Origin: Eledone cirrhosa
Lineage: Eukaryota
DNA length: 64,000 bases
Reading direction: 5' to 3'
NCBI GenBank assembly: GCA_964016885.1
Contig: OZ024757.1
Span: forward strand, 10,912,001 to 10,976,000
The notes beneath the pieces were generated by a model. That model was given only the letters and a program-made list of their open reading frames with translations, searched no databases and was not told the DNA's origin. Positions 4,986 through 17,568 of this stretch are shown here, piece by piece (position 1 is the first letter of the stretch; every line of letters begins with the position of its first letter). Position numbers and translations under genes: made by a program.

Positions 4986-5111
4986 CCCAGACGGACGTCT
5001 CGTTTCATTATAGGATTCCTACAATATGGGTGAAATTATACCAATTTATGTAGGAGCTTGTATAGGATCAACAGATAATATTCAAGTGGGCTCCTATAAT
5101 TCATCAGTGGG
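4986..5111 (-). ncRNA. Type I hammerhead ribozyme with extended stem II (family C)
   Basis: Minus strand: CCCA-CTGATGA-ATTATAGGA...TCCTATAAT-GAAA-CGAGACGTCCG-TC-TGGG. Confidence 0.85.
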
Positions 5112-5247
5112 TGCCCCAATAATACTAATATCGATAATCTAACCAACATCAGTATTTAGCGATAATCATCATCAGTGCCTGAGGTATCTGTTAGGTTGCT
5201 AGTCCAGCAGTTCTAAAGCAATATATATATGTATATATATATATATT

Positions 5248-5318
5248 TTGTTATACTTGGGGAGGGTCATATTGTTGTAATAATATTGCCAGAAATAATA
5301 ACAGACCACACTCACTCA
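5248..5318 (-). mobile_element. Family B PLE terminal fragment
   Basis: ttgttatacttggggagggtcatatt... matches 14172-14237. Confidence 0.65.
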
Positions 5319-5377
5319 TATATATATATATATATATATATATATATATATATATATATATATATGTATATATATAT

Positions 5378-5932
5378 AACCAAGGAAATGTGGTAAGGAA
5401 CCAGATGGACCATAACGCACCAAAGTACTCAATACTTAGGGTAGTAGAGTGGGTAATAGGAACGAGTTTTCTATAGTTTAGCAGTACCAGTGAGAGACTT
5501 GATGATTGTGGTAAGGGAATAGTAACCAGAAATTGTTTTTTTATATTTTTAACATTCTTATTATTCTTCTATATATTTACTCCATATTGATTTACTTATT
5601 GTTTCGACTTCCTCCCCCTCCCTAGTATACTTTCTTCACCTCCTGCACTTAGGATCCCGCTGTAGTTGGCACGACTGGGATTCCTCCCATCCCTCGCCCT
5701 CTTTCTTCTACTGGCAGGTCCAGCTACCCCTTCCTTCCCCAAATTGCCACGATAGAATTATGTGTCTCAACAACAAACTCTTGACCAATCCTTGTGAGAA
5801 TCAGTTTTACCATATATGGAATTACCCCCTGAGAAGCTCGGCTATTCATGTACCAGGATAACAATTTTCATTTAGTCCAGAATTAGCCGTCGAAACGGCT
5901 TGAGCTCAGCCGTCGGGGTCCTACTAGTTCCT
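5378..5932 (+). mobile_element. Longest family A copy: inverted tail (5378-5467) plus 3' region ending in a hammerhead
   Basis: Shared termini with the other family A islands. Confidence 0.75.
5824..5919 (+). ncRNA. Hammerhead ribozyme (family A), core variant CTGAGAA
   Basis: ACCCC-CTGAGAA-..CGGCTA...TAGCCG..-GAAA-CGGCT TGAGCTC AGCCG-TC-GGGGT. Confidence 0.7.
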
Positions 5933-6109
5933 ATATATATATATATATATATATATATATATATATATATATATATATATATATATACACATATATATAT
6001 ATATATACACATATATATCTGTGTGTGTATGTATGTATATATATATATATATATATGTGTTTGTGCGTGTGTGTGGATGTGGATGTGTGTGTATATCTAA
6101 GTATATGTA

Positions 6110-6415
6110 TCATTATCATCACTTTATGTTCACTTTTCCCTGCAAAGGTGGCATGGGTACTATTCAGCACAGCATCCCTCCACTTGTCACGGTCCTTTGT
6201 CATCTCCTCTGTGAGTTTCAGTGATCTGAGATCTGCTCTCACCACCTCCGCCCATGTTTTTCGTGGTCTTCCTCTACTGTGTCTTCCTTCCACTGCGATT
6301 TCTTGGCACTTCTTTACCCAGCGGTCATCCTCCATGTGCATCACATGTCCATATCGTCTCAGTCCTCTCCCCTCCACACCACAACTTATCCCTCTTATAC
6401 ACAGTTTCTTTCCGT
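6110..6415 (-). mobile_element. RTE LINE 3' fragment (subfamily 2)
   Basis: [18 protein letters not shown]...RGRPRKTW (RTE C-terminus). Confidence 0.85.
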
Positions 6416-6565
6416 ATGTATGTATATATATGCATGTGTAGGTATATTTATGTATGCGGTGTATGTGTATGTATAATTATGTCTATATATATATGTATGT
6501 ATGTGTGTACGTAGTGATATATATATATATACATGTATTTATGTTATATATATATTTATATATAT

Positions 6566-6802
6566 ATGCAAAAGTTCTATTTAAAATTGTTGGGATACAA
6601 CAAGTAAATATTTTATAACTGATATAAAGCACTCGACAAGTTTTTGGAGTAGATATACGATATTAAATAAATGGAAACTATATTTATAAAATCATATTTA
6701 TTTCATTATACATATTTCAGGGATACCAAATTAAAATATGGTATGCCTTCATCAGACAAAATACAATATATAAACAGTTTTATAAATAATTTTGACGTAC
6801 CC
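6566..6802 (-). mobile_element. Solo pLTR fragment of PLE family D; hammerhead at 6699-6763
   Basis: Reverse-complement match to 12652-12889; core CTGATGA...GAAA-TATGTA-TA. Confidence 0.85.
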
Positions 6803-7692
6803 TATTAGATGCAACCATTATTTTTGGAAGCTGTCTGGATAGTTTATATATATATATATATGTGTGTGTGTGTGTGAATGTGTATGTGTGTACGTGTGGA
6901 TATAAATATATATGTGTGTATATATATATATATATATATATATAGGTGTGTGTATATGGTGCTCCAGCATGGCCTCAGCTGGATGGCTGGAACAGGTGAA
7001 AGAGTATACATGTGTGAATATATATAGAAGATATATATACACATATATGTAATATATAGAATATATATATATACATATATGTAATGTTTGTGTGTATATG
7101 TATGTATATATATATATATGTATGTGTGTATAGGTGTGTATATATATGTGTATGTATGTGTATATGTCTGTCTGTATGTATATATATATATAGGTGTGTA
7201 TATATGTATATGTATGTATGTCTGTATGTATATATATATATATATATAAATATATATATGTGTGTATATATGTATATGTGTATATGTATATGTATATATA
7301 ACTATACATATAATATATGTGTATGTATGTATGTGTATGTATGTGTGTGTATGTGTATATATATATATATATATATATGTGTGTGTGTATATATATATAT
7401 ATATATAATGAAGTTGTGCACATGTACGTCTGTGAGAGTGTACATGTATATGTGTGTGCGTGTGCTTGTATACTAATGTTTATACCTATATACATACCTA
7501 CATATGAGTATACATACATATGCATATCTATCTATCTCTCTCTCTATATATATACATACAGGTATATATATATGTATATATATATATACATACAGGTATA
7601 TATATATATATATATATGTATATATATATATATATATATACAGGTATATATATATATGTATATACATACATACAGGTATATATATGTATACA

Positions 7693-8076
7693 TGGTGGCT
7701 GCCAACTCGTTTTCGAGTACGGCCACTACTTTATATCCATGTAGGAGAACCCCTACCGATGCGCTGAACGAGTGACGTTTTAGTCCAGCCTGCGACATGA
7801 AAACTGGTACAAACACTACACTTGTGACAATTATTGACACATAGTGCTGGGCCCATGGTACCATGTGATGACAAGTGCAGAGAGATCTCCAGATATAAAG
7901 CAATGCCTGTGCCGTGAAGCTTTTATAGTGAGCAAAGGCACTGCACAAAGCCAGTCCCACTCTCTTAACCAAGATGATATTTACCAAAAAGAAGAACAAG
8001 TCAACATCATTGGATACCATCAGGGTTGCAGGTGTTATATCAGAGTTTTCCTTCTCCTAGAATTCTGCCTTGACAA
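7693..8076. repeat. Unknown dispersed repeat; inverted copy at 13182-13568
   Basis: About 385 bp of near-identical reverse-complement match; both copies adjoin (TA)n. Confidence 0.8.
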
Positions 8077-15265: not shown

Positions 15266-15368
15266 TTCACCGTATTTTTTACTAAAGGACTAAAGGAAAT
15301 TTAGCCTGATAATGGGGTTCTAAACCCCATTATCAGGCTAAAATTCCTTTAGTCAAAAATACGGTGAT
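15266..15368. repeat. Short imperfect fold-back
   Basis: ctaaaggaaatttagcctgataatgggg / ccccattatcaggctaaaattcctttag. Confidence 0.75.
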
Positions 15369-15379
15369 ACATATATGTA

Positions 15380-15655
15380 TCATCATAATTTTACGCTTTT
15401 CCCTGCTTGCAAGGGTGGGACGTGAACTGATTCTGGCTTGATCTCTACAGCTGGATGCTTTTTTCCGTGGCACCTCCACAACCACCTTGCAGTGGAATGA
15501 TAGGGACCCCATCCCTATCATCTCATTTCTACAGCTGAGTAAACTGGAGCAATGTGAAATAAAGTGTCTTGCTCGAGGAAACAACACATCACCTGGTCTG
15601 TGAATTTAACTCACAACCTTTCGATTGCAAGGCCAATGTTCTAACCACTAAGCCA
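15380..15655 (-). mobile_element. SINE1, internally deleted
   Basis: Matches the other SINE1 copies. Confidence 0.85.
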
Positions 15656-15711
15656 TATATATATATATATATATATATATATATATTTTTTTTTTTTTTT
15701 TTTTTTATATT

Positions 15712-16648
15712 ATATTATATTTTGAGAATAAACTCTCAGTCGTTTACAATAATTAAGCTCCAGGAAGGGACTCTTCCGAGCAGTTAAATACATTTAAAGT
15801 ATGATAAACACGAAATGTGTTTACATTGCAACCTGACAAAGTTAGCTATTAATGAAATAAACTAATAAAAGTGAATACAATTTGTCTGTCTCGATACAAG
15901 TCAATAAAGACAAGCTTATATTGGCAACTGCCATGATTCCTGGACATATTTAAATTTCAAAATTCAAACCTGTTCTGTAGACGAATTTGAACCTCGAAAC
16001 CCAAATAAGTTTCGCAATGGTGGAATGTGAATTGAAAAATAAAGAGAATCGAAATGGAATAGAAATAAAAGAGTGAAATATCCAAATCATCTGTGCATAT
16101 CAACAGGAATCCTTCCTGGAGCTTAATTATTGTAAACGACTGAGAGTTTATTCTCAAAATATAATATAATGTATAGCTCCTTTATTGTGAGAGCTGATCC
16201 TTAATCCTGCATAAGCGGCTGTTATTTCTAGCACCGTGAATGTGGGATAGCTAGTTTTGGCCTGCCTACCCACGTGTAGTCAGTCCTGCAACATTTTTGA
16301 TGTGAGATAGACTAATCTTACTGGATTCCTGTTGATATGCACAGATGATTTGGATATTTCACTCTTTTATTTCTATTCCATTTCGATTCTCTTTATTTTT
16401 CATTTCACATTCCACCATTGCGAAACTTATTTGGGTTTCGAGGTTCAAATTCGTCTACAGAACAGGTTTGAATTTTGAAATTTAAATATGTCCAGGAATC
16501 ATGGCAGTTGCCAATATAAGCTTGTCTTTATTGACTTGTATCGAGACAGACAAATTGTATTCACTTTTATTAGTTTATTTCATTAATAGCTAACTTTGTC
16601 TGTTGCAATGTAAACACATTTCGTGTTTATCATATACTTTAAATGTAT
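15712..16648. repeat. Double inverted-repeat island
   Basis: 15712-15769 vs 16110-16168 and 15788-16111 vs 16323-16647 are reverse complements. Confidence 0.85.
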
Positions 16649-16897
16649 ATATATATATATATATATATATATATATATATATATATATATATATATGCAT
16701 ATATATATATATATATATGTATATATATAGATAGATAGGTAAATATACACGGGTGTGTATGATTGTGTATAGAAGATTATATTAATAAGAGGAATTCCAA
16801 CTTTGTCTGATTTACTCGTTTTATTTACAATCCTTTAAAATATATAATGGTATTATAATGAAATAGTATGATAGAATATTAAATTCTAAGTGTTAAT

Positions 16898-16936
16898 TGA
16901 ACAAGTACTTTCATGCTTTCGCAATCTTCAGGTTCA
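16898..16936 (-). ncRNA. Minimal type I hammerhead (family E, left arm)
   Basis: Reverse complement of 17010-17048. Confidence 0.9.
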
Positions 16937-17009
16937 TAATATGTGGTGACAGTCGAGTTTGCAATTTTCAACAGTTGAAAATTGCAAACTCGACTGTCAC
17001 CACATATTA

Positions 17010-17048
17010 TGAACCTGAAGATTGCGAAAGCATGAAAGTACTTGTTCA
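17010..17048 (+). ncRNA. Minimal type I hammerhead (family E, right arm)
   Basis: TGAAC-CTGAAGA-TTGC GAAA GCAT-GAAA-GTAC-TT-GTTCA. Confidence 0.9.
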
Positions 17049-17442
17049 ATTAACACTTAGAATTTAATATTCTATCATACTATTTCATTATAATACCATT
17101 ATATATTTTAAAGGATTGTAAATAAAACGAGTAAATCAGACACAGTTGGAATTCCTCTTATTAATATATATATATATATATGCATATATATATATATATA
17201 TATATATATATATATATATATATATATATATATATATATATATATATATATATATAATTAATACAATAACAGAGATAGTTTAAAGCTAAACTCTGACTGG
17301 TAACCATCTCACTCAACAAACATTAGGTTATATTAAAATATAAACCCAATTTAAGTGTTTGGGGTGCTAACAATATGTATAATGTGGAAAAACCAGTTGT
17401 ATTATTTTATGAGATATAATTAAAGTTAAAGTATATCTCTCT

Positions 17443-17568
17443 TTCCAAACAATTGTTTCATTATAAGTTTTCTACAAGTTTGGGAGAATGTTTCCAGTTT
17501 ATGTAGAAGCCTAATATATATTCATGTAATAATATATTTAGGTGGGCACTTATAAATCGTCAGTGGAA
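17443..17568 (-). ncRNA. Type I hammerhead (diverged family C copy; island about 17260-17620)
   Basis: TTCCA-CTGACGA-TTTATAAG...CTTATAAT-GAAA-CAATTG-TT-TGGAA. Confidence 0.85.

What the first reader, a model, noticed from the sequence alone, without database searches (positions are those of the whole stretch)
4986..17568. Compensatory changes between two diverged family C hammerheads
Copies at 4986 and 17443 differ substantially but keep pairing. Stem I is CCCA/TGGG vs TTCCA/TGGAA. Stem II is TTATAGG/CCTATAA vs TTATAAG/CTTATAA. The inner helix is TCCTACA/TGTAGGA vs TTCTACA/TGTAGAA. Stem III switches between different self-complementary sequences. This supports selection on the fold, including an unusual branched insertion of about 80 nt in stem II.
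Basis: seen in the sequence. Interest (0 to 1): 0.72.

Follow-up and report, generated by a model that had tools for sequence, protein, structure and literature searches.

The report
Long-armed hammerhead in a retrozyme
These are two copies of a predicted self-cutting RNA (hammerhead ribozyme) inside a protein-free jumping repeat with thousands of copies in this animal genome; paired base changes between its subfamilies keep an unusually large two-hairpin side arm intact, and an excess of copies that start exactly at the predicted cut site suggests it cuts in living cells.

Summary
Confirmed. Both motifs are complete type I hammerheads on the minus strand. They belong to two subfamilies of an ORF-less tandem repeat (units about 700-1000 bp, at least 3,633 copies, 14 subfamilies up to 34% apart). 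Its 3' end is fixed about 190 nt past the cut site and joined to (TA)n. This is a non-LTR retrozyme, probably mobilised by a Penelope-like element; the partner was not found. In 13 subfamily representatives, 10 of 38 pairs change on both sides and 97% of cells pair, including in both hairpins of the ~77-nt stem II insertion. The support is aggregate, not per pair. In one lineage, 33 of 54 TA-joined copies truncated near the ribozyme begin at the predicted cut, indirect evidence of cleavage in vivo. An invariant GGGC/GCCC pseudoknot is possible but shows no covariation. Compensated, palindromic Penelope-type hammerheads are published; the branched arm was not found in seven literature searches. 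The scan noted similar arms and cut-site starts earlier on other DNA of this genome. New variant of a known kind.

The parts
4818..5219 (-). 5'-truncated retrozyme copy, subfamily C1 (approximate ends)
   Evidence: (TA)n on both sides
4986..5111 (-). type I hammerhead, copy 1 (stem I 5111-5108 with 4989-4986; core 5107-5101 and 5006-5003; H17 = 4990)
5007..5100 (-). 94-nt branched stem II domain, copy 1 (basal helix, 5-nt junction, two hairpins)
5057..5086 (-). side hairpin IIa, copy 1
5017..5055 (-). side hairpin IIb (7-bp helix, internal loop, 3-bp inner helix), copy 1
4991..5003 (-). stem III with GACGUC palindrome, predicted dimer interface, copy 1
5113..5116 (-). GGGC, 5' strand of candidate pseudoknot, copy 1
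   Evidence: no covariation
5088..5091 (-). GCCC junction strand of candidate pseudoknot, copy 1
   Evidence: invariant in 14 subfamilies
4818..4985 (-). structured 3' domain, with the conserved 16-nt motif at 4875-4860, up to the fixed 3' end
4791..4817 (.). (TA)n at the 3' junction of copy 1
17257..17620 (-). 5'-truncated retrozyme copy, subfamily C2 (approximate ends)
17443..17568 (-). type I hammerhead, copy 2 (stem I 17568-17564 with 17447-17443; core 17563-17557 and 17459-17456; H17 = 17448)
17460..17556 (-). 97-nt branched stem II domain, copy 2 (IIa 17542-17510, IIb 17508-17470)
17449..17456 (-). palindromic stem III ACAAUUGU, copy 2
17569..17572 (-). GGGC candidate pseudoknot strand, copy 2 (partner GCCC 17547-17544)
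17257..17442 (-). structured 3' domain, copy 2 (motif 17323-17308)
17164..17256 (.). (TA)n at the 3' junction of copy 2

Best explanation
The two motifs are type I hammerhead folds in two subfamilies of an ORF-less tandem repeat (a non-LTR retrozyme) whose two-hairpin stem II arm is kept by paired base changes; they likely cut multimeric transcripts into unit RNAs, which a Penelope-like reverse transcriptase likely copies into (TA)n sites. Shown: intact core; tandem non-coding units; thousands of copies; a fixed 3' end in (TA)n with ragged 5' ends; compensated helices in the ribozyme and in a 3' domain; a peak of 5' ends at the predicted cut site in lineage C1. Inferred: (1) the palindromic stem III pairs between two ribozymes (dimer cleavage); (2) reverse transcription starts internally about 190 nt past the cut, guided by the structured 3' domain; (3) most templates are read through the cut site (ligated circles or uncut RNA), and a minority are cut linear RNAs on which the enzyme runs off at the new 5' end; (4) the arm acts as a folding brace, possibly through a 4-bp GGGC/GCCC pseudoknot to the stem I flank.
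For: 3,633 exact pattern matches, control 0. Units of 703-998 bp, GC 31-34%, longest stop-free frame 54-85 aa in 6 units. 3' ends: 79 in a TA run, 13 continuing into the next unit, 3 other, of 95. Structure counts on 13 copies: 97.2% of cells paired, 10 of 38 pairs changed on both sides; slid controls 35-49% paired with 0-2 such pairs. RNAalifold recovers the branched arm without being given it. Stem II is 92-98 nt in 185 of 190 parsed copies and H17 is G in 0 of 183. Helix IIb has 12 of 14 columns invariant, 0.14 extra alleles per site against 0.9-1.0 in the flanks. Variants lacking the 5' strand of stem II occur in several subfamilies but only as scattered single rows among the 39. The 3' domain has 9 of 42 pairs changed on both sides. 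Cut-site starts: 33 of 54 loci; in a second design, 27 of 69 loci have the TA run directly on the cut site, against 1, 0, 1 and 7 at the next four G positions and 1 at -3. Literature: PMC4209133, PMC7229834, PMC11167929, 10.64898/2026.07.22.740005.
Against: No cleavage assay, and no expression data could be obtained. No autonomous partner: no Penelope ORF abuts a family copy in sense in the 150 loci screened. Without pseudoknot or dimer the hammerhead fold is about 5 kcal/mol above the predicted minimum in both copies. In 30 unselected loci no 5' end fell at the cut site; 15 start downstream and 15 upstream, so cut-site starts are a small minority. For C2 the peak is blurred: 7 at 0/+1, 8 at -1/-2 and 7 at -18, of 31 loci read from 100 of 221 rows. 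In a purified Penelope-type element cleavage was not needed for insertion and no RNA ends were seen at the cut (PMC11167929); 8 of 9 Xenopus retrozyme dimers did not cleave in vitro (10.64898/2026.07.22.740005). Seven subfamily states break a pair.
Confidence: 0.75

Rival explanations
1. The fold is selected, but the arm is a protein-binding or RNA-handling domain (for the partner reverse transcriptase or a host factor), or a DNA promoter element, and is neutral for catalysis.
For: Helix IIb and basal stem II are conserved in sequence, not just in pairing. Stem II carries TATAA on both strands (read from the sequence). The PAc hammerhead is protein-assisted (PMC11167929). Other hammerhead families in the same loci have stem II of 14 to 116 nt, so a long arm is not a general need.
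Against: A DNA promoter role would not explain the two-sided changes. The junction GCCC and the stem I flank GGGC are conserved and complementary.
Confidence: 0.35
2. The ribozyme is largely silent; elements spread from uncut tandem transcripts as pseudo-LTR derivatives, and the 5'-end peak reflects the enzyme stalling at structure or microhomology with the TA target.
For: Half of 30 unselected copies read through the site and none stops on it. The first base after the cut is a T shared with the TA run. PMC11167929 found unprocessed RNA to be the main substrate in vitro.
Against: Other T-start positions give 0 (-2) and 1 (-6) direct junctions, and a site with 2-nt microhomology gives 4, against 22 at the cut. 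GAAA and U16.1 are invariant in 14 subfamilies.
Confidence: 0.2
3. The compensatory changes are mutational (template switching between inverted repeats) or phylogenetic coincidence, not selection.
For: Few events per pair; 5.9% of random variable column pairs also look perfectly compensated. No G.U intermediate was seen for the stem II pair.
Against: Only 1 of 51 private changes at stem pairs is a pair-keeping double change. U.G intermediates exist for helix IIb in 2 copies. 4 of 8 two-sided pairs are perfect against a 5.9% background (P 7e-4). Helices vary less than flanks between subfamilies but not in private mutations.
Confidence: 0.07

Closest known systems
Metazoan non-LTR retrozymes (Cervera and de la Pena 2020, PMC7229834, passages read; Li, Clavereau and Pollet 2026, 10.64898/2026.07.22.740005, parts 1-3 of 5 read)
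   Same: Non-coding low-GC tandem units, one type I hammerhead per unit, many solo truncated copies; U.U at the base of helix II also reported (axolotl HHR_Amex2).
   Different: Units of 700-1000 bp against 170-400 nt (2020) and 51-972 bp (2026); stem II opens into a ~77-nt two-hairpin domain in place of a small loop 2.
Penelope-like element hammerheads, min-HHRs (Cervera and de la Pena 2014, PMC4209133, parts 1-2 of 4 read; Lunse et al. known only through review PMC6765202, passages)
   Same: [quoted passage not shown]
   Different: No branched loop II in the text read; the host here has no ORF. Supplementary alignments and the Lunse paper were not seen and may hold long variants.
Poseidon element PAc of Anolis (Frangieh et al. 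2024, PMC11167929, parts 1-2 of 4 read)
   Same: Internal reverse-transcription start downstream of the hammerhead and AT-rich targets match the fixed 3' end in (TA)n.
   Different: PAc is autonomous and its authors saw no RNA ends at the cut site; here genomic 5' ends peak at it.
Pseudoknot-braced hammerheads (Perreault et al. 2011, PMC3088659, passages read)
   Same: About 40% of hammerheads are predicted to brace stems I and II by a pseudoknot; U10.1-U11.1 is tolerated.
   Different: Here the candidate partner strand is the junction of a multibranch arm after an 8-9 bp stem II; untested and without covariation.

Membership tests
Type I hammerhead ribozyme | Core CUGANGA, GAAA, A15.1-U16.1, H17 not G | tested here: met
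   GAAA and U16.1 invariant in 14 subfamilies; H17 G in 0 of 183
Type I hammerhead ribozyme | Three helices around the core, stem I open | tested here: met
   stem III only 3 bp as a monomer and not formed in the RNAalifold consensus
Type I hammerhead ribozyme | Match to an Rfam hammerhead model | tested here: not met
   (150 of 473 rows seen); likely due to the long insertion
Type I hammerhead ribozyme | Self-cleavage after H17 | not testable with these tools
   indirect only: 5'-end peak at that bond
Type I hammerhead ribozyme | [quoted passage not shown] | tested here: inconclusive
   4-bp GGGC/GCCC compatible in all subfamilies, no two-sided change
Non-LTR retrozyme | Tandem units, each with a type I hammerhead | tested here: met
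Non-LTR retrozyme | No coding capacity, low GC | tested here: met
   54-85 aa stop-free, GC 31-34% in 6 units
Non-LTR retrozyme | Unit length in the reported range | tested here: inconclusive
   703-767 bp inside, 996-1009 bp just above, the 51-972 bp of the 2026 preprint; all above the 170-400 nt of 2020
Non-LTR retrozyme | Expressed as linear and circular unit RNAs | not testable with these tools
   no usable RNA data
Non-autonomous Penelope-like element | Fixed internal 3' end, ragged 5' truncation, (TA)n targets | tested here: met
Non-autonomous Penelope-like element | Palindromic short helix III, helix II 7-8 bp, helix I 4-5 bp | tested here: met
   against PMC4209133
Non-autonomous Penelope-like element | Sequence homology to the pseudo-LTR of an autonomous element | tested here: inconclusive
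   none seen in 150 loci and the window; the genome was not screened exhaustively

The most novel reading that the evidence does not exclude
A natural hammerhead architecture in which stem II opens into a two-hairpin multibranch domain whose junction strand pairs with the stem I flank (a pseudoknot-braced four-way arm). It cleaves in the germ line, and both its cut linear RNA and its ligated circle serve as templates for a Penelope-type reverse transcriptase, so the genome records the ribozyme's cut site in the 5' ends of its copies.
Probability: 0.3. Interest if true: 0.65.

Novelty: new variant of a known kind. Interest (0 to 1): 0.42.

Why it matters
What hammerheads do in Penelope-like elements is open: in vitro they cut poorly, and in one purified system cutting was dispensable. 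A family with 14 natural variants of one fold and a genomic 5'-end peak at the scissile bond offers a ready test set. The arm puts the core halves about 95 nt apart; Rfam misses it here, and short-spacer descriptors (7-17 nt in PMC8557442) would too, so such ribozymes are probably undercounted. The class of element and compensated stems are known, which limits the surprise.

Tried and rejected
No RNA holder was listed for the element; laying two contig sets of unknown type gave nothing on ends or joints. A metagenome pattern search gave 0 hits, so no outgroup homologues were available. Searches for sister families with another stem II opening found only chance neighbours, deletion copies and an unrelated satellite. 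A-to-I editing scars, a lead from note e1-8803865: A>G 33 vs T>C 29 private changes, P 0.8, not seen. Pseudoknot covariation: a search for copies changed on both strands at the outer pair gave 31 scattered rows; among those with U on the flank in the C1-like lineage, 4 had A and 4 had U opposite, so no support. The double-change contrast (8 of 18 vs 1 of 51, P 4e-5) is confounded by branch length and is not relied on. The number of independent change events per pair was not counted; all counts are of states in present-day subfamilies. Plus-strand reading rejected (no core). The repeat finder was swamped by (TA)n. Pfam gave no hit for four window ORFs. Lunse et al. is not held. Literature searches for a branched stem II or a cephalopod hammerhead listed no such description; supplements were not read.
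Full report
Observation. The window is AT-rich, microsatellite-laden DNA from a 3.0-Gb animal genome; earlier scan notes call it octopus-like, which I did not check. A descriptor for this architecture finds 2 hits in the window and 0 in 300 shuffles. Folding z-scores are -1.3 and -3.2, and both minimum-energy folds contain the branched stem II. No Rfam hammerhead model scored (150 of 473 rows seen).

The host element. Each copy belongs to a young, abundant subfamily (1,247 and 1,342 first-look candidates; top 40 hits 97-100% and 99-100% identical). A pattern linking the core to a conserved 16-nt downstream motif matches 3,633 places, reversed control 0; a pattern on the motif itself matches 5,342, control 1. 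Neighbouring copies form tandem units, mostly 702-707, 760-762 and 996-1009 bp; six extracted units have GC 31-34% and no stop-free frame above 85 aa. The 3' end is fixed 189-199 nt past the predicted cut. Of 95 copies sampled by position, 79 end in a TA run, 13 continue into the next unit and 3 do otherwise. The 5' ends of 30 unselected loci are scattered, 15 downstream and 15 upstream of the cut. Both window copies are 5'-truncated. This is the anatomy of a non-LTR retrozyme with the insertion pattern of Penelope-like elements (PMC7229834, passages; 10.64898/2026.07.22.740005, parts 1-3 of 5; PMC11167929, parts 1-2 of 4). No Penelope ORF abuts a family copy in sense in the 150 loci then in hand, so the partner is inferred.

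Covariation. From 229 hits, 198 non-redundant full copies were kept (partial and duplicate hits dropped). They fall into 14 subfamilies with at least three loci, up to 34% apart; six divergent copies were left out of the majority sequences. An alignment of 13 real copies representing 13 of 16 groups was scored against my structure: 97.2% of 494 cells pair and 10 of 38 pairs change on both sides. They are 1 in stem I, 2 in stem II, 4 in hairpin IIa, 1 in helix IIb, 1 in its inner helix and 1 in stem III. Slid controls give 35-49% paired and 0-2 such pairs. The shuffle control is exceeded on four measures (0, 2, 0 and 0 of 500) but not on further pair types (470 of 500), and it ignores relatedness. 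RNAalifold recovers stems I, II, IIa and IIb unaided, but pairs the core with the stem III strand. Across 14 subfamilies, 8 of 29 stem pairs vary on both sides, 2 on one and 19 on neither (P 1.8e-5). Alternative subfamily states keep pairing 11 times and break it 7 times, mostly at helix ends; private mutations in 90 copies keep it 13 times and break it 38 times (P 0.01). Position 10.1-11.1 is A-U, U.U or G-C. Against over-reading: each pair has just two Watson-Crick states, and 213 of 3,639 arbitrary variable column pairs look equally compensated. Single pairs would therefore probably not reach R-scape significance; R-scape was not run and independent events were not counted.

The arm. Stem II is 92-98 nt in 185 of 190 parsed copies. 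Helix IIb carries 0.14 extra alleles per site between subfamilies, against 0.9-1.0 in the flanks and 1.2 in the top of IIa, while private mutation rates are similar. No sister family with another stem II opening was found; copies that lost the 5' strand of stem II appear only as scattered single rows. The junction GCCC is invariant, although it has the highest private mutation rate, and is complementary to GGGC just 5' of stem I. That would be a stem I-stem II pseudoknot of the kind Perreault et al. found common (PMC3088659, passages). In copy 1 it would also remove a hairpin that sequesters stem I and makes the inactive fold 5.4 kcal/mol more stable. It shows no two-sided change and stays a hypothesis. 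Stem III is ACAAUUGU (77 copies), ACGGCCGU (22), ACGAUCGU (19) or ACGAGACGUCCGU (49) among 183 parsed. It does not fold alone but is predicted to self-dimerise, as proposed for Penelope hammerheads (PMC4209133, parts 1-2 of 4; PMC6765202, passages). The region between the cut and the 3' end is also compensated: 9 of 42 pairs, 4 of them in one 5-bp helix. I infer it is the signal for internal reverse-transcription start.

Does it cut? There are no RNA data. A first look showed no obvious pile-up; after reading scan note e1-9585305 I ran sharper junction searches, counting by eye from the listings. For lineage C1, one search lists 56 rows (54 loci) in which a TA run lies within 21 nt upstream of the post-cut anchor. 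Of these, 33 begin at the predicted cut (the first T can come from the run) and 21 elsewhere from -19 to +1. Among 32 direct junctions, 22 are at the cut, 4 at a site with 2-nt microhomology, and 3, 2 and 1 at others. Because that design cannot see starts past +1, anchored further downstream. Of 69 loci, 27 have the run directly on the cut site, 1 at +2, 0 at +3, 1 at +6, 7 at +8 and 1 at -3; the other 32 have extra or changed letters or start in the AT-rich stretch and were not assigned. Crude uniform nulls give P 5e-10 and 3e-8. In C2 the picture is blurred by two T residues before the cut (31 loci from 100 of 221 rows); one search gave 9 of 25 for C1 from 100 of 305 rows. The simplest reading is reverse-transcriptase run-off at a cleaved 5' end in a small minority of insertions, while most templates are read through the site as circles or uncut RNA. 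This differs from PAc, where cleavage was dispensable and no RNA ends were seen (PMC11167929).

Comparison and verdict. It works like, and by the tested features is, a non-LTR retrozyme with a Penelope-type hammerhead; expression, circularity and catalysis are untested. Compensated consensus families and palindromic stem III are published (PMC4209133). A branched stem II domain was not found in seven searches; supplements and Lunse et al. were not seen and could contain it. Look-ups by sequence and by place found no earlier scan note on this DNA. Notes on other DNA of this genome report two-hairpin stem II hammerheads, candidate pseudoknots and cut-site starts; I could not tell whether they concern the same family. 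New variant of a known kind; interest 0.42.

Noticed in passing
window 8931-12756: Penelope-like element: ORF split by a stop at 12523-10703 (-), resembling RT plus GIY-YIG proteins (no Pfam hit), long 3' UTR, hammerhead at 8931-8996 (-) ending in (TA)n, and an inverted copy of that terminal repeat at about 12.6-12.9 kb. A different hammerhead family from the finding.
   Followed up: partly
window 26352-26491 (-) and 28004-28135 (+): Second long-stem-II hammerhead family (97-105 nt, unbranched, palindromic stem III), folding z -5.2 and -3.0.
   Followed up: partly
window 16895-17051: Perfect head-to-head palindrome carrying two minimal type I hammerheads with AGUACU stem III.
   Followed up: no
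window 17660-17790 (+): Repeat ending in a hammerhead-like GAAAC-GCGC-GUC but without CUGANGA at the usual place; related copies in L149 and L180. Possibly a rearranged hammerhead.
   Followed up: partly
window 6699, 29863, 31728, 40416, 50387, 60050, 61225: Seven more type I hammerheads of several families, stem II 12-31 nt.
   Followed up: no
L142, L143, L199, L200: Recurrent short deletion that removes the 5' strand of stem II in different subfamilies, each seen as a single copy.
   Followed up: partly
L092, L098, L016: Opposed-arm insertions of the family; 3 of 28 sampled copies have a family motif on the opposite strand upstream.
   Followed up: partly
L033:420-1400: The ~1000-bp C2 unit appears, by eye, to contain an internal duplication of about 250 bp relative to the 730-770 bp units.
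   Followed up: no
window 47173-48714: 48-bp tandem array, 32 copies, 90% matches.
   Followed up: no
window 33563-35251 (-), 42373-44867 (-), 62377-63971: Fragments of non-LTR retrotransposon ORFs; that label is recalled from motifs, not tested.
   Followed up: no
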